Source of the DNA: Candidatus Heimdallarchaeota archaeon | GTDB lineage: Archaea; Asgardarchaeota; Heimdallarchaeia; Heimdallarchaeales; Heimdallarchaeaceae | Length of the DNA: 32,000 nt | Direction: 5' to 3' | NCBI GenBank assembly: GCA_030668875.1 | Contig: DAOVER010000024.1 | Coordinates: forward strand, 12,428-44,427 | Shown here: positions 17-24,522 of the stretch, in pieces | Layout: every line of letters begins with the position of its first letter | Position numbering within the stretch: the first letter of the stretch is position 1 | Made by a program: the position numbers and the translations under genes | The notes under the pieces: generated by a model | Databases searched by the model: none | Told to the model about the DNA's origin: nothing | Seen by the model: only the letters and a program-made list of their open reading frames with translations

Positions 17-541
17 ATGGAAGAGATGATAACTCTTATTTATGAAACTGAGAAATTACCTGAGTTTATTGCGGAATCTGTTGAAGCTCAATTCAATGAA
101 ATAACAGACTTCCATGAATTACTTGATTTAATTCTGCTTGATACTCAAGAACTGTTAGCTGCCAATGAAAACGTTTCTATAAAAGGTAATGATATCAATT
201 TTGATTTTGTTAGGAGAAGAGAGGTTTTCATACCTGTAATTAAAACAATGGTTGAAGCAGTCGAAAACGTTATTTTAGGAGAACTTTTTGCAAAAAGCAG
301 TAAAATGACTAAAGCTGAAGGTAGTTACAATCGAGCTAACAAATTATTCTTTGAGGTTAGTGAATCTCTAGGTAGAATCATAAATTACTTAGAAGATCAA
401 AAAGAGCTCCCAAAATTCATTTACCAATTGTCATTGTTCAGTAGAGAAAATGCTTCTTCTATAAGAAACAGAAGAAAAAGACAAGAACCGCCATACTCAG
501 ATATGATTACAACTTTGGATTACCTCATACTTAACCTTTAA
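17..541 (+). CDS. hypothetical protein (174 aa, helical, acidic N-half)
   Basis: Open frame with ATG and native-looking composition; 38 nt upstream of the GTPase gene on the same strand. No motif recognised. Confidence 0.75.
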   Translation: MEEMITLIYETEKLPEFIAESVEAQFNEITDFHELLDLILLDTQELLAANENVSIKGNDINFDFVRRREVFIPVIKTMVEAVENVILGELFAKSSKMTKAEGSYNRANKLFFEVSESLGRIINYLEDQKELPKFIYQLSLFSRENASSIRNRRKRQEPPYSDMITTLDYLILNL

Positions 542-579
542 ACACTCAGATTTCAATGATTAGTAATTAGGGAAGCATC

Positions 580-1485
580 ATGGAGAATCTATTTCGGTTA
601 AAGCAAGACACAATACCAATCGTACTTATTGGTCTTCAATATGCTGGAAAAACTACACTTGTAAGCTGGTTAAAGGAGAAACGTTTTACTCGTCCAAAAC
701 CTACTGTTGGAGTAGTAGTTGAAAACATAAAAATAGGTGATATACTTTTCAATATTCACGATATATCAGGGCAAGAAGTTTTTCGAGAAAATATATGGAA
801 GTCCAATATATTAACATCCATGGGAGTTGTTTTTGTTCTTGATTCTTCTGATACTTCAAGGTTAGATGAAGCTTTCACTTGGTATTGGAAGATGGTAAAG
901 GAATGGTTAATTGAATCTTATTCAGATAAAGCAATTCTCTTTCTAGCTAACAAATCTGATCTGAAAACCGCCCTTAGTCTAGATGACATAATTAGCAAGA
1001 TGAAACTGGATGAAATGTCTTCATATCCTAATATTTCTTTCCAATTCTTCAAAACTTCAGTAAGAAATGAAGAAAACATTGAACTTTCTTTTAAATGGTT
1101 TATTTCTAAGATTAAGAGTTTTAGGAAACTTCAATTCAAGAAATTCAAGGCACTCATTGTTTCCGATATTTTTGGAAATCCGCTATATGTTTATGACCCT
1201 GATAAAATTGCACAAGACACCGGAATGTTTGTCGGTTATATTAAAGCTTTGAGTGGGTTTGCAAATGAGATTCTAGGGCATGAGCAATTTAAAGTTCTGA
1301 AAGTTGATACAAACCACTTCTTCATTTCAGAGATTAATGAACACGTTGTGCTCATTGCAGTTGATCAAGAAGAAGCACTTCCTGAAGCGCGTAGACTATC
1401 TATATTGTTACATGAGTATTTAAAAAATAAGAATGTTGATATAACTACAGAATTGAACGTGCTTTTGAGTGACTATGTAACATAG
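580..1485 (+). CDS. Arf/Rag-like small GTPase fused to a C-terminal longin/roadblock-like domain
   Basis: G1 GLQYAGKTT, switch I KPTVG, G3 DISGQ, G4 NKSD, G5 region KTSV. The C-terminal ~110 aa follow a longin-like pattern (LIVSDIFGNPLY...YIKALSGFANEILG...VVLIAVD). Confidence 0.88.
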   Translation: MENLFRLKQDTIPIVLIGLQYAGKTTLVSWLKEKRFTRPKPTVGVVVENIKIGDILFNIHDISGQEVFRENIWKSNILTSMGVVFVLDSSDTSRLDEAFTWYWKMVKEWLIESYSDKAILFLANKSDLKTALSLDDIISKMKLDEMSSYPNISFQFFKTSVRNEENIELSFKWFISKIKSFRKLQFKKFKALIVSDIFGNPLYVYDPDKIAQDTGMFVGYIKALSGFANEILGHEQFKVLKVDTNHFFISEINEHVVLIAVDQEEALPEARRLSILLHEYLKNKNVDITTELNVLLSDYVT

Positions 1486-1561
1486 AAAGAATTTTAAAAG
1501 CAAAGAAGTTCCTTCCACAAAGAATATAAAGACTTTAAATTTACTTAATATTGAGTTTCGT

Positions 1562-1566
1562 GGTGA
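1562..1566 (+). promoter_or_regulatory. Shine-Dalgarno GGTGA for the CDS at 1573
   Basis: GGTGA lies 6 nt before the ATG and matches the archaeal SD consensus. Confidence 0.6.
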
Positions 1567-1572
1567 TTATTA

Positions 1573-2157
1573 ATGGACTGTAAATTCTGTAAACTTGAAA
1601 ATATTGATTTGTTAGAAGATGGTATTACCTTTAAGTGCAGTCATTGTGGTTATTCATTTGATGTTGGTAAAACAGCTATACTATATGATAAAATGATGCA
1701 AATGCCTCTTTCTTCATGGTTGTTAGCATCTCTACTCTGGTTTTCTGCAATGGTAACAGGAGTTTTATTAGGTTTAGGATTTAGTAGTGCATCTTTATCG
1801 TCTACTATTTTGTTCCTATTCATATATGGAGCATCAGCTTTCTTATATGGTATATCCGCATCTATTGATTTCTTCAGTGCTATTTGGATATACATTAAAG
1901 GAACATTCTCAAAAGAGAAAATTTCATTTGATGAAGCTAAAAATGAAGTTCAAGTGAAAAGAAAAGAGAAAATAGTAAGTGAAATGGCGACCGGTCAAGT
2001 AATTGATGAAGCTACTGGAAAAACTGTTGACACAGATATTAGACCTGGGGAGAAGCGTGTTCCAAAAATTGCTCCTTCATTCTTAGCAGGTATTTACACA
2101 ATCGTTCTAGCTGTGCTATTTGTTATTGTGTTTACTACATTCTTTCCACCACCTTAA
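1573..2157 (+). CDS. membrane protein with an N-terminal Zn ribbon
   Basis: CKFC...CSHC at the N-terminus, a hydrophobic hairpin at about aa 45-105, and a C-terminal TM segment ending FFPPP; preceded by an SD. Confidence 0.8.
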   Translation: MDCKFCKLENIDLLEDGITFKCSHCGYSFDVGKTAILYDKMMQMPLSSWLLASLLWFSAMVTGVLLGLGFSSASLSSTILFLFIYGASAFLYGISASIDFFSAIWIYIKGTFSKEKISFDEAKNEVQVKRKEKIVSEMATGQVIDEATGKTVDTDIRPGEKRVPKIAPSFLAGIYTIVLAVLFVIVFTTFFPPP

Positions 2158-20744: not shown

Positions 20745-21515
20745 TTATACAGGAGATATTTCTATGTTGAGTATCTCTAAAATACTCACCATTTCTTTTA
20801 CATCTTCAACTGTTTTTACTCTCATTGAACTCTTAAACATACTAGAATTTAACTCTGATGCTACTTTGTAGATATTCCTTCTTCTCCATACATCCATTGA
20901 AGGATTATATAGGAGTATATACATTACATTTTTGTGCAAATCACAAAGAAGGTATGTATCAGCATATTCTAATCTCTTACCAATCATTTCTTTCAAAGAA
21001 TTATCTTGATTAACTCCAAAAATTCTGGGGATTTTTCCAGAGAACATATCAACCATTTTTAAGAAAACCTGTTTAATGGACGAAGGATTAATATCTGCTT
21101 CTGCGTTAAGACTTCTCGCTATTAGGGTGAAATAGGGTATAATGAGACCATAACTATCTAAAACTTCTCGTACAGCTGAGCCTTCAAACAGGAAATATGC
21201 AACACATAATCTGAATCCTGCTTGCTCTATTCTCACATCAGTTGATGAGGTTATTTCTGTTTCAAAAGGAATAGCTATAGCTTTCAAACTTTCATTATCT
21301 GGGACAGGGATTGGACCAAGCATTTTTGGTTTTTGGCTTCCATCCAATCTACCGATTGAAGACTTATCCATTTCAACAAGGGTCATACCTGTCATAACTA
21401 GTGTTAGAGCTGTATTTTCTTCTAATGTAGAATTATTGAACAATATTTCTGGTCCATAATCTTTGAATATACTGAACACCAATGTTGGTTCTTTGGAAAT
21501 GTTTGGATTTATCAT
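20745..21515 (-). CDS. uDENN/longin-like N-domain fused to a gelsolin-like C-domain (putative)
   Basis: LVFSIFKDYGPEILF at the N-terminus; PRIFGV...DTYLLCD...MYILL...long helix...RVKTVED at the C-terminus. AGGAG SD at 21523-21527 supports ATG 21515 over 21536. Confidence 0.6.
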   Translation of the reverse strand: MINPNISKEPTLVFSIFKDYGPEILFNNSTLEENTALTLVMTGMTLVEMDKSSIGRLDGSQKPKMLGPIPVPDNESLKAIAIPFETEITSSTDVRIEQAGFRLCVAYFLFEGSAVREVLDSYGLIIPYFTLIARSLNAEADINPSSIKQVFLKMVDMFSGKIPRIFGVNQDNSLKEMIGKRLEYADTYLLCDLHKNVMYILLYNPSMDVWRRRNIYKVASELNSSMFKSSMRVKTVEDVKEMVSILEILNIEISPV

Positions 21516-21528
21516 TATTTTTCTCCTT

Positions 21529-22518
21529 TTAATCATCCTTTATAGGTTCTTGATCTAAAGCAATTGCAATTTCAGGAATTTTGCTTAAGATTTCGTATTT
21601 AACTTGTTTTGGCATTTCTTTAGTCGGATCTCTATTCCGTTCTTCAATAAATGCTTGAAGGATTTCCTCGGCAAGAGATTGTGCTTTAGACTCACTATCA
21701 TCTCTACCAACGAATAATACTATACTCCATCCACTTACTTTTCGAATAATCATCTTCATAGCGCCTAGTTTTACAACATCCATCACAGATTCGCTTTCAA
21801 AGATAGTTGTAGCCATGATATTTAGTGCACTAATCAATCCGCCTAGCAATGTACTATCGTGCTCCTCAATGGAAGCATCAAAGGTATAGTCAAATGCGGG
21901 CACGCCTCCCTCTTGAAGAATAATAACTCTCCTTGGAGTTACATCTTCACGTAATGGTGTCCTCCCTGTCATTCTTGAAATAATCCAATCAAAAGCGGTA
22001 TAGAAAGTTTCTCCTGTTTTGGCACTGATTGGATAAATTGAAACAGAACGATTTATATCGTCCATAATTATTTGAAATGCTGGATCTTGAAGTAAATCTA
22101 CAAAAGGAACAGCATTTGGTTTGTCTATCTTGTTAGCAAGGAAAAGAATTGATGTCTTTTGAGGGATTCTATCAAGTAAGGTAAAAATATATTCAAAAGA
22201 AGCTTCAATATGTCTATTTGACTGAGTATCTATCACGAATACTACTCCATTAATCTCACCAAGAATATCTTGGAAGTAAGGACTTTCGCGAGCAGTTTCT
22301 TCACCTGCTTCAACAACTGAAAGAATGGTTGTACCATACTTTACATTAATGAAACAAGTAGATTGTTCAGGTTGTCCCTCAGCAATAGTTCCAAACATTA
22401 AACGATTAAGAACAGTAGACTTTCCTGAACCTTCTAGACCAAGAATAACTATTTGAGGGATTTTTCTATCCTTCTCAGACATCATCTTATCTCGTATAAA
22501 TGAGAGATAGTTGCTCAA
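21529..22518 (-). CDS. Arf/Rag-like GTPase with degenerate switch motifs, fused to a longin-like domain
   Basis: G1 GLEGSGKST, G4 NKID and G5 SAK are intact; G3 reads EAGEE; longin-like VIILQEGGVP...LLGGLISALNIMA. TTG start with a GGAGG SD at 22529-22533. Confidence 0.85.
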   Translation of the reverse strand: MSNYLSFIRDKMMSEKDRKIPQIVILGLEGSGKSTVLNRLMFGTIAEGQPEQSTCFINVKYGTTILSVVEAGEETARESPYFQDILGEINGVVFVIDTQSNRHIEASFEYIFTLLDRIPQKTSILFLANKIDKPNAVPFVDLLQDPAFQIIMDDINRSVSIYPISAKTGETFYTAFDWIISRMTGRTPLREDVTPRRVIILQEGGVPAFDYTFDASIEEHDSTLLGGLISALNIMATTIFESESVMDVVKLGAMKMIIRKVSGWSIVLFVGRDDSESKAQSLAEEILQAFIEERNRDPTKEMPKQVKYEILSKIPEIAIALDQEPIKDD

Positions 22519-23529
22519 TTATCGTCTTCCTCCCTCTACTTCAAGTGGGAACTTACTTTCGAAGACTTCTCCTAAGTTTCTACTTACTTCAGCAGGGTTC
22601 CTACTGAAATTCTCTAAAATTCGCAGTTGAATCTGTTGAGCTCTTGTAACTGGATCAATTGGGTCAATCATTACGGAAAGACAGTATGCTCCACGTTTAA
22701 CATGACTAACATGTTTTTTATATAAATTCTCTAATTTTATTGATTGAATGCTTTCCTTAGTTTCTACTGCGAACATTTTAGTTAATTCTTTTAATTTCTT
22801 AAAATCATTTGCTACAGTAGCTTGCTCATTGGGGTTACCAAAGATGGCTTCAGATATAATGGTACCTGAGATATCTGTCAATACAGCAGCACCTATCTTA
22901 ACTTTCCATTGCTGAGCACCGCAGAGCACATCAACTACCCAGTCCCACGCTTCATAGACACCTTGTCCTGTCAAAGCTGAAACTTTCTTAATATTGAATG
23001 GTCTGAGATTTCTTAGAAATTTATCTAATTCAAAATGTTCATTGATTTCAGATAATTCTTTAGAATTGGGTAAATCACTTTTGTTTGCTAAAAATAATAC
23101 AGGAGCATTTTGTTTTGCAAAGTTAATATAATGCCAAAATGTTTGTTTGGATTCGTCAAATCTTACATGATCAGCTGAATCTACCAAATATATCACAGCA
23201 TCAGCTCGTTCAATAAATTTTTTCCATAAACTCAATCTAAAAGGTTGATGACCTCCTAGATCAAAGCAAGTGAAGTTTAAATCTCGATATTGATAGTTTT
23301 CTAAATTAATTCCATAAGTGGGTCTAACAACGATATCCTCTTGTTTTAACAGTTTTTTAACTAGCGAGGTTTTTCCAGCTCTTTCTAACCCTAATAACGC
23401 TACACTAAATTTGTTTCTCCCAACCACTGACTCTTGTTGAGCTGTTGTATCTGTCCTAGTTTTCTTTTCTTGCTTCTCTCGCTTAGCTTTTTCCTGCATT
23501 ATACGTTTTCGAAATTCATAGAAAGACAT
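22519..23529 (-). CDS. Arf/Sar1-like small GTPase fused to a longin/roadblock-like domain
   Basis: G1 GLERAGKTS, switch I RPTYG, G3 DLGGH, VIYLVDSAD, G4 NKSD, G5 VSAL, GQGVYEAWDW; AGGTGA SD at 23534-23539. Confidence 0.9.
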   Translation of the reverse strand: MSFYEFRKRIMQEKAKREKQEKKTRTDTTAQQESVVGRNKFSVALLGLERAGKTSLVKKLLKQEDIVVRPTYGINLENYQYRDLNFTCFDLGGHQPFRLSLWKKFIERADAVIYLVDSADHVRFDESKQTFWHYINFAKQNAPVLFLANKSDLPNSKELSEINEHFELDKFLRNLRPFNIKKVSALTGQGVYEAWDWVVDVLCGAQQWKVKIGAAVLTDISGTIISEAIFGNPNEQATVANDFKKLKELTKMFAVETKESIQSIKLENLYKKHVSHVKRGAYCLSVMIDPIDPVTRAQQIQLRILENFSRNPAEVSRNLGEVFESKFPLEVEGGRR

Positions 23530-23573
23530 GTAATCACCTATCTTGTTGTCAGTAAAGGAGTTGGAACATACTA

Positions 23574-23696
23574 TCAGTACATTCTAATATCGTTCTCAAT
23601 CATTTTAATGTTTTCGCTACTTGTAATATCTTTTTTTACCTTTGTTAATATCGTATTTAAATCATTCCGAACTCTCAATTTGGGAGGGGGTTCCAT
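23574..23696 (-). CDS. putative 40-aa small protein (below the ORF-track cutoff)
   Basis: MEPPPKLRVRNDLNTILTKVKKDITSSENIKMIENDIRMY. The ATG lies 1 nt after the uppP stop, the ORF ends in TGA TAG, and it fills the intergenic gap. Confidence 0.4.
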   Translation of the reverse strand: MEPPPKLRVRNDLNTILTKVKKDITSSENIKMIENDIRMY

Positions 23697-23697
23697 G

Positions 23698-24522
23698 TTA
23701 ACTTGGTATCCATCTTAAAACAAATAAAAGGATAGTAAGAATACCCAGGATAATACATACAATTGCGAAATTATACTTGCGTGCAATAAGGAGGAATAAT
23801 TCCATAGTGAGATAGCCAATGATAGCAGTTATCAAAACAGCTAAAATAAGCATCCACCAATCAGCGGGGAATATGCTTTCATGATTAAATAGTTTAAATG
23901 TTAAATTAAGAATAAAACCTCCGAGTACAGCAGGTATACTCATAATGAAACTTCCTTTAATTGCATCTTCTTTATTCACCGATAACAGAAACAAACCACT
24001 CATTGTGACGCCTGATCTACTAATACCGGGGATGATTGTGAACCCTTGGAACAGACCAATAATTGTCATTTCTTTTTTTGAGAGATCTTCAATTTTCTTC
24101 CCCGATTTCTGTTGCTTTTTTGCATAGAAGAGCAATCCAGCTGTCACAAGAAGTGCAACACCAACAATTAGCATAACATACTCACCTATAGAAGGTTCAA
24201 GGTCTAGATAGTAAATAAATAAAAGATAGCAAGGTACACCTATGATTATTGTCCCGAGGGTGCTTAGAACTAAAAACCATCTCCATTGTACGGTTACAGA
24301 ATCCCTAACTCTTGGATTAATATAGAGAACTATTTCTTTGTGATACTTTACTGATACAGCAATAAGCGTCCCCAAATGAAGCCACAAGGCAAGATCTAGA
24401 GCACTAGTAGAAGGAACTCCTAGTAAAGTTGAAACAGTTATTATTTGTCCTTCAGAACTCACAGGTAACCATTCAAGAATGCCTTGAAGAAATGCGAGCA
24501 GTAGAAGTATCCAGAAAAGCAT
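23698..24522 (-). CDS. uppP: undecaprenyl-diphosphate phosphatase (BacA/UppP family)
   Basis: QGILEWLPVSSEG, HLGTLIA, GLFQGFTIIPGISRSGVT and SFIMSIPAVLG motifs. Confidence 0.93.
   Translation of the reverse strand: MLFWILLLLAFLQGILEWLPVSSEGQIITVSTLLGVPSTSALDLALWLHLGTLIAVSVKYHKEIVLYINPRVRDSVTVQWRWFLVLSTLGTIIIGVPCYLLFIYYLDLEPSIGEYVMLIVGVALLVTAGLLFYAKKQQKSGKKIEDLSKKEMTIIGLFQGFTIIPGISRSGVTMSGLFLLSVNKEDAIKGSFIMSIPAVLGGFILNLTFKLFNHESIFPADWWMLILAVLITAIIGYLTMELFLLIARKYNFAIVCIILGILTILLFVLRWIPS

What the first reader, a model, noticed from the sequence alone, without database searches (positions are those of the whole stretch)
20745..23696. Candidate new system: Rag-like GTPase heterodimer encoded with an FLCN/NPRL2-like GAP carrying a gelsolin-like domain
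Seen: abutting or near-abutting co-oriented genes, the three large ones each with its own SD: smORF, GTPase A (intact G1-G5, DLGGH) plus longin/roadblock, GTPase B (degenerate switches) plus longin, and a uDENN-like/gelsolin-like protein. Established: eukaryotic RagA/B-RagC/D are GTPase-plus-C-terminal-roadblock proteins that heterodimerise through that domain and are switched by longin/DENN GAPs (NPRL2 in GATOR1, FLCN) using an arginine finger. Asgard genomes are known to encode such domains individually. Inference: this operon is a self-contained prokaryotic switch (asymmetric GTPase pair plus cognate GAP) whose output may reach actin or membranes, a possible precursor-like analogue of Rag/GATOR or Sar1/Sec23 modules. 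Whether this arrangement is undescribed needs a literature and database check.
Basis: partly seen in the sequence, partly recalled or inferred. Interest (0 to 1): 0.88.

Follow-up and report, generated by a model that had tools for sequence, protein, structure and literature searches.

The report
Heimdallarchaeal GTPase pair with longin-gelsolin regulator
A three-gene operon conserved across Heimdallarchaeia encodes a working Arf/Sar-like GTPase, a disabled sister copy and a protein joining a folliculin-type longin domain to a gelsolin-like domain, which gives a concrete, testable candidate pairing of an archaeal small GTPase with its regulator.

Summary
On the minus strand lie GTPase A (22519-23529), GTPase B (21529-22518) and protein C (20745-21515, 256 aa).

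- **A and B:** both are Arf-family by sequence, not Rag. Each has a C-terminal domain with longin topology.
- **A:** G1-G5 are invariant and it carries a Sar1-type DLGGH.
- **B:** it keeps the P-loop but has lost the G2 Thr and the G3 motif.
- **C:** it matches no Pfam family. Its model (pLDDT 89) is an N-terminal longin closest to Lst4, FNIP2/FLCN, SMCR8 and NPRL2, plus a C-terminal gelsolin fold closest to Thor ProGel. It carries the invariant GP motif reported as specific to GAP-type longins and a near-invariant Arg95.
- **Synteny:** the order A-B-C is kept in all 36 informative loci of 40 Heimdallarchaeal genomes. In other Asgard families the same longin type is fused to a GTPase domain.
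- **Binding:** a complex prediction gave only weak support for C binding (0.52, best control 0.00).
- **Small ORF:** it is not conserved and overlaps a conserved BRE/TATA-like promoter motif.

The most likely reading is a self-contained GTPase switch with C as its regulator, probably a GAP. GAP activity, A-B dimerisation and any link to actin are inferred, not shown.

Paired Rag-like GTPases and GP longins are already published. The linkage between them and the gelsolin fusion were not found in the literature searched. This scan has found the same operon before on other Heimdallarchaeal DNA.

The parts
23601..23620 (-). Conserved BRE/TATA-like promoter motif (core AGCGAAAACATTAAA) about 75-90 nt upstream of the GTPase A start
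   Evidence: An alignment of upstream regions from 12 Heimdallarchaeaceae loci shows this as the only conserved block besides the AGGTGA Shine-Dalgarno. The promoter function is inferred from its resemblance to the archaeal BRE/TATA consensus (own knowledge).
23574..23696 (-). 40-aa small ORF of the finding; probably not a gene
   Evidence: Its frame is broken by stops or frame changes in the closest relatives L012, L013 and L037, and it is absent in the others. It overlaps the conserved promoter-like motif. It has no Pfam match.
22519..23529 (-). GTPase A: an Arf-family G domain (about residues 38-200) plus a C-terminal longin-fold domain (about residues 207-336). It looks catalytically competent and has a Sar1-type His in switch II.
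   Evidence: Pfam Arf E 1.2e-39. The best PDB sequence matches are Arf1. G1 GLERAGKT, G2 Thr71, DLGGH (His94), NKSD and SAL are invariant in 20 orthologues. The C-terminal domain model has pLDDT 87 and topology bb-a-bbb-a-a. Its best fold matches are the VAMP7, Sec22 and Ykt6 longins at Z 10-12.3.
23248..23262 (-). Switch II motif DLGGH of GTPase A
   Evidence: Read directly from the sequence. D90, G92, G93 and H94 are invariant.
21529..22518 (-). GTPase B: a degenerate paralogue of A with the same two-domain build, and a likely pseudo-GTPase
   Evidence: Pfam Arf E 7e-20. hhalign of the A and B profiles gives probability 99.9% over 270 columns, including the C-terminal domain. The P-loop GxxxSGK(S/T) is kept, there is no conserved G2 Thr, G3 reads EAGEE or DLGKE, and the NKxD Asp is lost in the second clade.
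22297..22311 (-). Degenerate G3 (EAGEE) of GTPase B
   Evidence: Read directly from the sequence. No orthologue has the DxxG glycine or a Gln/His at this position.
20745..21515 (-). Protein C (256 aa): an N-terminal GP-motif longin domain (residues about 8-160, 21036-21494) plus a C-terminal gelsolin-like domain (residues about 162-256, 20748-21032)
   Evidence: No Pfam or NCBIfam family matches. The AF2 model has pLDDT 89.4.

Longin domain matches: 8yqg_B Z 12.9, Lst4 Z 11.7, 6nzd_H (FLCN-FNIP2 complex) Z 11.3, a C9orf72-SMCR8 complex chain (7o2w_A) Z 10.8, and 8fw5_B (GATOR1) and 6ulg_N (FLCN-FNIP2 complex) Z 9.6.

Gelsolin domain matches: Thor ProGel Z 10.2 and adseverin Z 9.4. The family profile also hits Thor ProGel by sequence at E 2.8e-4.
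21450..21455 (-). GP motif (Gly21-Pro22) at the start of longin strand beta2
   Evidence: It is invariant in 32 family members and in 35 longin domains, including those fused to GTPases. Strand beta2 begins at residue 21 in the model. PMC12290439 describes a GP motif at this position as specific to GAP-type longins.
21231..21233 (-). Arg95, the candidate arginine finger, in a D-x-R motif between longin strands beta4 and beta5
   Evidence: Asp93 is invariant and Arg95 is conserved in at least 90% of 32 family members. An Arg is also kept in this loop in the longin-GTPase fusion proteins. Its role as a finger is inferred; its equivalence to FLCN R164 or NPRL2 R78 could not be tested.

Best explanation
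This is a conserved Heimdallarchaeal operon for a self-contained small-GTPase switch. One promoter drives three genes.

- **A** is an active Arf/Sar-like GTPase. Its switch II carries His instead of Gln, as in Sar1, so it probably hydrolyses GTP slowly on its own.
- **B** is a paralogue that still has a P-loop but has lost the gamma-phosphate-sensing and catalytic motifs.
- **A with B:** both end in a longin-fold domain. By analogy with Rag/Gtr pairs and other longin/roadblock dimers, these domains are expected to pair, giving an asymmetric A-B heterodimer (inferred).
- **C** is the regulator. Its longin domain has the GP motif and a conserved loop Arg that mark the FLCN, NPRL2 and SMCR8 GAP longins. 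It most likely docks on A's G domain and stimulates GTP hydrolysis (inferred, with weak computational support for binding).
- **C's gelsolin-like domain** either helps to hold the GTPase, as the gelsolin domain of Sec23 does for Sar1, or links the switch to actin (inferred).

Shown here: domain folds, motif conservation, synteny and gene fusions. Inferred: dimerisation, GAP activity and the output of the switch.
For: **Operon structure.**
- The order and strand A-B-C are kept in all 36 informative loci of 40 genomes. These fall in two clades whose C proteins are only 41-43% identical to each other, and the flanking genes differ.
- Gene junctions abut or overlap in the window's clade.
- The only conserved promoter-like motif lies upstream of A.

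**Distribution and linkage.**
- Family C is present in 80 of 81 sampled genomes of families f1-f7, the families nearest the window's own.
- Some C paralogues also sit next to GTPases of about 310 aa with C-terminal extensions (L053, L055, L058, L068).
- In other Asgard families the same GP-longin type is fused N-terminally to an Arf-like G domain in proteins of 460-470 aa (L077, L078, L082, L084). This is a Rosetta-stone link.

**The GTPases.**
- A has invariant G1-G5 and DLGGH.
- B is degenerate.
- A and B are paralogues over both domains.

**Protein C.**
- C's fold matches GAP-type longins.
- Its nearest structural clusters in the ESM Atlas carry the Folliculin, C9orf72, SMCR8, NPR2 and Avl9 families.
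- The GP motif is invariant and sits where PMC12290439 places it.

**Complex prediction** (A + B + C + 2 GTP, C scored).
- The verdict was weak support: median score 0.52 against a best control of 0.00.
- That mark was reached by 58 of 80 solved complexes and 2 of 110 mismatched pairs. Scores of 0.60 or under were seen in only 7 of those 80 and in both passing mismatches.
- The runs agree in at least 40% of contacts, and the partner's pLDDT is at least 76.
- Replacing chain A with an unrelated protein dropped the score to 0.00.
Against: - There is no biochemical evidence of any kind.
- The complex score is in the weak band, and no interface was reported, so Arg95 could not be placed in A's active site.
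- C has no sequence-level match to the Folliculin or NPR2 families. The equivalence of Arg95 to known arginine fingers therefore rests on loop position alone.
- Most longin domains act as GEF platforms or adaptors, not GAPs.
- The eukaryotic longin GAPs work as heterodimers with DENN domains, which C lacks.
- About half of the C paralogues sampled have no GTPase gene within 6 kb.
- A-B dimerisation was not tested.
Confidence: 0.45

Rival explanations
1. C is not a GAP. It is instead a GEF, a scaffold or an effector of the A-B pair. In this reading its longin domain is a GTPase-binding platform, as in TRAPP, Mon1-Ccz1, DENN and Ragulator, and its gelsolin-like domain carries out the output, for example capping or severing actin when A is GTP-bound.
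For: - Longin and roadblock folds also match TRAPP, Mon1-Ccz1, DENND1A and AP sigma/mu subunits at Z 6.6-8.8.
- The gelsolin-like domain is related by sequence profile to an actin-binding Asgard gelsolin (7c2f, E 2.8e-4).
- The genome encodes two actins and two 2-domain gelsolins, so an actin system is present.
- Synteny and fusions show functional coupling but not its direction.
Against: - According to PMC12290439, the GP motif is absent from non-GAP longins such as TRAPP, adaptin and DENND proteins. Here it is invariant.
- The best fold matches are the GAP-complex longins.
- A's His-for-Gln switch II fits dependence on a GAP (own knowledge of Sar1).
- PF00626 does not detect C's gelsolin-like domain.
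Confidence: 0.3
2. C is a Sec23-style GAP. In this reading the gelsolin-like domain, not the longin domain, contacts the Sar1-like GTPase A and supplies the catalytic residue, while the longin domain only anchors C to the A-B longin platform.
For: - A carries the Sar1-type DLGGH.
- In Sec23 the gelsolin-like domain contributes the catalytic residue for Sar1, and Asgard Sec23-like proteins lack that domain (PMC11914678).
- C's C-domain aligns to the Sec23a gelsolin domain (2nup_A, Z 7.3, rmsd 3.4, 88 residues).
- The gelsolin domain has conserved basic and polar positions (Arg/Lys164, Asn223).
Against: - The Sec23 match is weaker than the matches to true gelsolins (Z 8-10) and falls within the range the tool calls common.
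- The strongest conservation in the family lies in the longin domain (GP, GPxPVP, DxR).
- In other Asgard families the longin domain alone is fused to GTPases, without a gelsolin domain.
Confidence: 0.1
3. The three genes are co-transcribed and co-inherited, but their products do not form a complex. C acts in another pathway, and the linkage reflects shared regulation only.
For: - The interaction prediction is only weak support.
- About half of the C paralogues sampled lack a neighbouring GTPase gene.
- Tran et al. note that MK-D1 GTPase genes are generally not in operons with longin or roadblock genes (PMC10933270).
Against: - There is not one exception to the A-B-C order across two deeply diverged clades with different flanks.
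- Direct longin-GTPase fusions exist in other Asgard lineages.
- The predicted interface disappears when A is replaced.
Confidence: 0.1

Closest known systems
Operonic pair of 'Rag-like' GTPase-roadblock/longin proteins of Prometheoarchaeum MK-D1 (Tran et al. 2024, PMC10933270)
   Same: Both have two adjacent genes for a small GTPase fused to a C-terminal longin/roadblock-superfamily domain. The proteins are annotated Arf-like by sequence. AF2 predicts the MK-D1 pair to heterodimerise through the C-domains, like Gtr1-Gtr2.
   Different: - The pair here is asymmetric: an active copy and a degenerate copy.
- The C-domain has longin topology.
- A third conserved gene for a GP-longin-gelsolin protein follows.
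- Tran et al. state that MK-D1 GTPase genes generally do not sit in operons with longin or roadblock regulators.
Eukaryotic longin GAP complexes with their client GTPases: FLCN-FNIP with RagC/D, GATOR1 (NPRL2-NPRL3-DEPDC5) with RagA/B, and C9orf72-SMCR8-WDR41 with Arf1
   Same: - The longin fold matches (Z 9-11.7).
- The GP motif sits at the start of beta2, and a conserved Arg lies in the longin domain.
- The client is an Arf/Rag-type GTPase.
- The GTPase comes as a pair joined to longin/roadblock domains.
   Different: - C shows no sequence-level membership in PF11704 or PF06218.
- C has a gelsolin-like domain instead of a DENN domain.
- There is no second longin subunit in the operon.
- The GTPases are Arf-family rather than Rag-family, and one is a pseudo-GTPase.
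- GAP activity is untested.
Asgard 'FLCN/SMCR8-type' GP-motif longins (Traffic 2025, PMC12290439)
   Same: These are Heimdallarchaeal longins with a GP motif and an Arg in the same arrangement. That paper explicitly asks which GTPases (ArfR or Rag/Gtr) are their partners.
   Different: The published examples are partly recognisable by InterPro or Pfam as Folliculin/SMCR8 longins, whereas C is not. No gene context and no gelsolin fusion is reported there. I could not check whether C's family is among their 15 sequences, because the supplement is not held.
Sar1 with Sec23 (COPII)
   Same: The GTPase has DLGGH, and the regulator contains a gelsolin-like domain.
   Different: C has none of Sec23's trunk, barrel, zinc-finger or helical domains. 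A has an extra longin domain and a pseudo-GTPase partner. The resemblance may be convergent.
MglA-MglB (bacteria), and the Asgard LAMTOR1-like / Rab-like GTPase / DENN operon (Liu et al., bioRxiv 10.1101/2020.10.19.343400)
   Same: In both, a prokaryotic small GTPase is encoded next to a roadblock/longin-superfamily regulator. These are precedents for operonic GTPase-regulator modules.
   Different: MglB is a roadblock homodimer with no Arg finger. The Liu et al. operon uses a Rab-like GTPase and a DENN protein, so its gene families differ from those here.

Membership tests
Arf family GTPases (PF00025), tested on GTPases A and B | The G domain scores above the Pfam Arf gathering threshold, and Arf is the best-matching family | tested here: met
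   A scores 136 bits and B 71.6 bits against a cut-off of 22.3, the best of all families. The top PDB sequence matches are Arf1, Arl3 and Arl8.
Arf family GTPases (PF00025), tested on GTPases A and B | An N-terminal amphipathic helix for membrane binding | tested here: inconclusive
   The N-terminal SFxEFR / SFLRRL motif is conserved. However, its hydrophobic moment does not exceed that of shuffled sequences; 19-63% of shuffles reach it.
Arf family GTPases (PF00025), tested on GTPases A and B | A canonical switch II DxGGQ with catalytic Gln | tested here: not met
   A has DLGGH with an invariant His, as in Sar1. B has EAGEE or DLGKE.
Rag/Gtr GTPases (PF04670) | A G domain of the Rag/Gtr family by sequence | tested here: not met
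   Gtr1_RagA scores 27.1 bits for A, just over its cut-off of 22 and far below Arf's 136 bits. B scores 17 bits, under the cut-off.
Rag/Gtr GTPases (PF04670) | A C-terminal roadblock domain | tested here: inconclusive
   The C-terminal domain belongs to the longin/roadblock superfamily. Its predicted topology is bb-a-bbb-a-a, which is longin. The best VIA matches are longins at Z 10-12.3, while roadblock proteins (MglB, LAMTOR, LokiRag C-terminal domains) score Z 7.6-8.4. Foldseek ranks Ego3, LAMTOR and roadblock proteins first.
Rag/Gtr GTPases (PF04670) | An obligate heterodimer formed through the C-terminal domains | not tested
   The single complex job scored only protein C. Dimerisation is inferred from paralogy, adjacency and the MK-D1 precedent.
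FLCN / NPRL2 / SMCR8 GAP-type longins | A longin fold | tested here: met
   The model has pLDDT 89. Matches: Lst4 Z 11.7 (rmsd 2.8, 125 aligned), 6nzd_H Z 11.3, 7o2w_A Z 10.8, and 8fw5_B and 6ulg_N Z 9.6. Foldseek gives a GATOR1 chain at E 7e-4. Atlas neighbours carry the Folliculin, C9orf72, SMCR8 and NPR2 families.
FLCN / NPRL2 / SMCR8 GAP-type longins | A GP motif at the loop/start of the second beta strand (PMC12290439) | tested here: met
   Gly21-Pro22 is invariant in 32 and in 35 sequences, and strand beta2 starts at residue 21.
FLCN / NPRL2 / SMCR8 GAP-type longins | A catalytic arginine finger in the longin domain, next to the GP motif | tested here: inconclusive
   Arg95 (D-x-R, in the beta4-beta5 connection) is conserved in at least 90% of members. 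An Arg persists in that loop in the fused forms. Spatial proximity to GP and insertion into A's pocket could not be read, because no coordinates or contacts were returned.
FLCN / NPRL2 / SMCR8 GAP-type longins | Sequence membership in PF11704 (Folliculin) or PF06218 (NPR2) | tested here: not met
   Neither C nor any of the 32 family members gives a Pfam hit to these families. Neither family is found in the whole genome at E up to 0.1. The profile search against PDB finds only the Loki longin 8yqg.
FLCN / NPRL2 / SMCR8 GAP-type longins | A C-terminal DENN-type domain and a second longin subunit that pairs with the first | tested here: not met
   The C-terminal domain is gelsolin-like, and the operon has no second free longin gene.
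FLCN / NPRL2 / SMCR8 GAP-type longins | GAP activity on a Rag or Arf GTPase | not testable with these tools
   This needs biochemistry.
Gelsolin/villin domain family | The gelsolin fold | tested here: met
   Residues 162-256 match Thor ProGel 7c2f at Z 10.2 (rmsd 2.6, 86 of 88 aligned), adseverin at Z 9.4, gelsolin at Z 8.9 and Heimdall 2DGel at Z 8.2. Foldseek probability is 1.00 to gelsolin domain 2 and ProGel.
Gelsolin/villin domain family | Sequence-level relatedness | tested here: inconclusive
   The family profile hits Thor ProGel at E 2.8e-4 and villin at E 0.24. Pfam PF00626 does not detect C.
Gelsolin/villin domain family | Actin binding | not testable with these tools

The most novel reading that the evidence does not exclude
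The operon is a complete archaeal forerunner-type switch. A GP-motif longin acts as an arginine-finger GAP on a Sar1/Arf-like GTPase that is held in an asymmetric dimer with a pseudo-GTPase. The fused gelsolin domain couples the GTPase cycle directly to actin. This would identify the first cognate GTPase-GAP pair in Asgard archaea. It would also show that the FLCN, GATOR1 and C9orf72-SMCR8 type of GAP chemistry predates eukaryotes and was originally wired to the cytoskeleton rather than to lysosomes.
Probability: 0.2. Interest if true: 0.85.

Novelty: new variant of a known kind. Interest (0 to 1): 0.64.

Why it matters
Two recent papers leave exactly this point open. PMC12290439 asks which Asgard GTPases, ArfR or Rag/Gtr, are the partners of the GP-motif longins that resemble eukaryotic GAPs. 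[quoted passage not shown]

A strictly conserved operon, backed by longin-GTPase fusions in other Asgard lineages, names one specific GTPase pair and one specific longin-gelsolin protein. These can be expressed and assayed together.

If C proves to be a GAP, the longin-GAP mechanism used at eukaryotic lysosomes would be traced back into Heimdallarchaeia. The gelsolin fusion would point to an early link between GTPase switching and actin. If C is not a GAP, the module is still a clean system for studying active/pseudo-GTPase pairs.

Tried and rejected
1. **Small ORF 23574-23696 as a gene: rejected.** It is not conserved as a frame in the nearest relatives and overlaps a conserved DNA motif.
2. 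**N-terminal amphipathic helix on A or B.** The hydrophobic moment is no higher than in shuffled sequences, so the idea is left open and not claimed.
3. **Family searches for C and 31 relatives.** Pfam and NCBIfam gave nothing. PF11704 and PF06218 gave no match in the window's genome (for PF06218 nothing rang in the controls either, so that blank is weak).
4. **Sequence bridge from the longin profile to FLCN, NPRL2 or SMCR8 in PDB.** Only the Loki longin 8yqg was found, so the position of Arg95 could not be aligned to known fingers.
5. **The search for related loci with the wide alignment A2** failed for lack of a conserved stretch. The closer alignment A1 worked.
6. **Sigma-70 promoter and terminator scan.** It found fewer sites than in shuffled sequence and does not apply to archaea.
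8. **Literature search for 'LokiRag'**, the name on PDB entries 8yl2 and 9m28, found no paper in the library.
9. **The protein-language-model atlas** gave only sub-threshold leads, including one cluster with 19% NPR2.
It was re-sent without Mg.

Full report
**Where the window lies and what is in it**

The window is contig C71:12428-44427 of a 3.2 Mb genome that is 92% complete, with about 33% G+C. Close protein relatives are annotated Candidatus Heimdallarchaeaceae.

On the minus strand, downstream of a BacA/UppP gene (23698-24522), lie these features:
- a 40-codon ORF (23574-23696);
- GTPase A (22519-23529, 336 aa);
- GTPase B (21529-22518, 329 aa), whose TTG start directly follows A's TAA;
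- protein C.

All orthologues of C are 254-256 aa and align from the second ATG. C is therefore 20745-21515, starting 13 nt after B's stop. AGGTGA, GGAGG and AGGAG lie in front of A, B and C respectively.

**The GTPases**

Both GTPases match Pfam Arf best: A at 136 bits and B at 71.6 bits. Gtr1_RagA scores only 27 and 17 bits. The best solved relatives by sequence are Arf1, Arl3 and Arl8. These are therefore Arf-family G domains. 'Rag-like' applies only to the build of a G domain plus a C-terminal dimerisation-type domain.

In 20 orthologues of A, the motifs G1 (GLxxAGKT), the G2 Thr, DxGGH, NKxD and SA(L/K) are invariant. The His replaces the Arf Gln, as in Sar1.

In 19 orthologues of B the P-loop is kept but the other motifs have decayed:
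- no G2 Thr is conserved;
- G3 reads EAGEE in the window's clade and DLGKE in the other;
- the NKxD Asp is lost in the second clade.

B is thus a degenerate sister copy of A. Profile-profile comparison aligns A and B over 270 columns, including the C-terminal domain, at probability 99.9%.

A's C-terminal domain was modelled alone on 33 A and B sequences. It gives pLDDT 87 with strand-strand-helix-strand-strand-strand-helix-helix order, which is the longin topology. By VIA the best matches are the VAMP7, Sec22 and Ykt6 longins and the AP sigma/mu subunits (Z 10-12.3). Roadblock proteins and the C-domains of the Loki Rag-like GTPases score lower (Z 7.6-8.4). Foldseek puts Ego3, LAMTOR and roadblock proteins first. 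The safe statement is 'longin/roadblock superfamily with longin topology'.

**Protein C**

Neither C nor any of 31 relatives matches a Pfam or NCBIfam family. An exhaustive HMMER search of 1.84 billion representatives finds only 47 clusters at E up to 1e-3.

The AF2 model (pLDDT 89.4) has two domains.

*Residues 8-160 form a longin domain.* The matches below come.

| Match | Z |
|---|---|
| Loki Roadblock-Longin protein, longin domain (8yqg) | 12.9 |
| Lst4 | 11.7 |
| FLCN-FNIP2 complex chain 6nzd_H | 11.3 |
| C9orf72-SMCR8 complex chain (7o2w_A) | 10.8 |
| GATOR1 chain 8fw5_B and FLCN-FNIP2 complex chain 6ulg_N | 9.6 |
| SEA complex chain 8adl_S | 9.0 |

A shape search of the ESM Atlas returns clusters carrying Folliculin, C9orf72, SMCR8, NPR2 and Avl9.

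*Residues 162-256 form a gelsolin fold.* The matches are Thor ProGel at Z 10.2 (rmsd 2.6, 86 of 88 residues), adseverin at 9.4 and Heimdall 2DGel at 8.2. The family profile also reaches Thor ProGel by sequence at E 2.8e-4.

Across the family the invariant or near-invariant positions are Gly21-Pro22, Gly67-Pro68, Asp93 and Arg95. Gly21-Pro22 sits at the start of strand beta2. PMC12290439 places a 'GP motif' at exactly that position. It reports the motif in FLCN, NPRL2, C9orf72 and SMCR8 but not in non-GAP longins, and says it lies next to the arginine finger. Arg95 lies in the beta4-beta5 connection.

I could not align Arg95 to FLCN R164, NPRL2 R78 or SMCR8 R147. No sequence bridge exists, and no coordinates or contacts were available.

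**Gene order elsewhere**

A scan of GTDB species genomes found 40 loci, almost all labelled Heimdallarchaeota. The outcome was as follows:
- 36 loci have A, B and C in the same order and on the same strand;
- 2 loci have only B and C before the contig ends;
- 2 loci have C at a contig end;
- none is an exception.

The loci fall into two clades. In one, C is 63-96% identical to the window's copy. In the other it is 41-43% identical, with A at about 38% and B at about 30%. The flanking genes differ between loci.

In the window's clade the gene junctions abut or overlap. In the other clade they are 100-160 nt apart, and a small Arf-like GTPase of 173-197 aa often follows C.

Across 399 genomes of the phylum, full-length C-type proteins occur in 80 of 81 genomes of families f1-f7, the families nearest the window's own, plus three genomes filed elsewhere. 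There are up to six paralogues per genome. Some paralogues again sit beside GTPases of about 310 aa with C-terminal extensions (L053, L055, L058, L068). Others have no detectable GTPase within 6 kb.

Outside families f1-f7 only the longin part matches. In several genomes it is fused directly upstream of an Arf-like G domain within one protein of 460-470 aa. These fused longins keep the GP motif and an Arg in the same loop. Such fusions are independent evidence that this longin type works with Arf-like G domains.

**The small ORF and the promoter**

The 40-aa frame is broken in the three nearest relatives and absent elsewhere. What is conserved there is DNA. A block with core AGCGAAAACATTAAA lies about 75-90 nt before A's start, and it resembles an archaeal BRE plus TATA box by my own knowledge of the consensus. 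AGGTGA follows at the start codon. No comparable space exists before B or C in this clade, which fits a single transcript. No RNA data set was available to check this.

**Interaction test**

One complex job was run with A, B, C and two GTP, with C as the scored partner. The verdict was weak support. The median score was 0.52 against a best control of 0.00.

The tool's calibration is as follows. The mark was reached by 58 of 80 solved complexes and 2 of 110 mismatched pairs. Scores of 0.60 or under were seen in only 7 of those 80 and in both mismatches that passed. The runs agree in at least 40% of contacts, and the partner's pLDDT is at least 76. My own alignments and the ligand depart from the calibration conditions.

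Replacing A with an unrelated protein gave 0.00. No interface was reported. The result is also open to the 'likeness to solved complexes' caveat, because Rag-FLCN and Rag-GATOR1 structures exist.

**Interpretation**

What is shown:
- a strictly conserved three-gene unit;
- an active and a degenerate Arf-type GTPase, each with a longin C-domain;
- a partner protein with a GAP-type longin (by fold plus the GP motif) fused to a gelsolin fold;
- fusion of the same longin type to GTPases in other lineages.

What is inferred:
- A and B dimerise through their longin domains, with the AF2-modelled MK-D1 pair as precedent (PMC10933270);
- C binds A and acts as its GAP through Arg95;
- the gelsolin domain either helps to grip the GTPase or reaches actin. 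The genome has two actins and two canonical 2-domain gelsolins.

The main rival reading is that C is a GEF, scaffold or effector. The Sec23-style reading and mere co-regulation are less likely.

**Comparison with the literature**

Several building blocks are already published:
- operonic Rag-like pairs, and GTPase-longin and GTPase-roadblock fusions (PMC10933270; Liu et al.);
- Asgard GP-motif longins (PMC12290439);
- another GTPase-regulator operon made of LAMTOR1-like, Rab-like and DENN genes.

Searches for Asgard with longin and gelsolin, and for Asgard longin GAPs, found no description of this operon or of a longin-gelsolin protein. [quoted passage not shown] I therefore class the finding as a new variant of a known kind.

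Earlier notes of this scan describe the same operon in other Heimdallarchaeal genomes and reach similar conclusions. I reached mine from the tests above.

Noticed in passing
window 17-2157 (+): A second Arf-family GTPase with a C-terminal extension of about 120 aa lies at 580-1485 (301 aa, Pfam Arf E 7.7e-32). It is flanked on the same strand by two ORFs with no Pfam match (17-541, 174 aa; 1573-2157, 194 aa). This may be another small GTPase cassette.
   Followed up: partly
window 23601-23620 (-); same block in L012-L035: A DNA block with core AGCGAAAACATTAAA is conserved upstream of GTPase A across Heimdallarchaeaceae, while the surrounding sequence is unconserved. It is likely a BRE/TATA promoter.
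   Followed up: partly
L039 6906-7430, L041 6893-7444, L042 3496-4089, L046 4886-5407, L048 1017-1541, L062, L065, L071: In the second clade of the operon, a small stand-alone Arf-like GTPase of 173-197 aa follows protein C on the same strand, making a four-gene version of the cassette.
   Followed up: no
L077 1501-2919, L078 233-1636, L082 1498-2886, L084 574-1977: In other Asgard families, single proteins of 460-470 aa join a GP-motif longin domain (with an ARGQ loop) to an Arf-like G domain. Other proteins of 560-630 aa carry the same longin type at their C-terminus.
   Followed up: partly
G000 contig C18 (1769-3178 and 14568-17400), C47:4391-4921, C17:22814-23311: The genome holds 39 Arf-family matches, and about ten lie in open frames of 300-340 aa (G domain plus extension). 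Four of these cluster on contig C18. One (C18:16879-17400) lies just downstream of a weak match to the C-type longin profile on the same strand.
   Followed up: no
L012 3984-4993: In one closely related MAG, the GTPase A gene is split into two ORFs of 216 and 85 aa. This is a frameshift or an assembly error.
   Followed up: no
L009 2075-3567 (Heimdallarchaeum endolithica CP084167): In that genome, two further genes are transcribed divergently from the operon: a 255-aa protein with weak Arf/Ras matches and a 235-aa protein with no family match.
   Followed up: no
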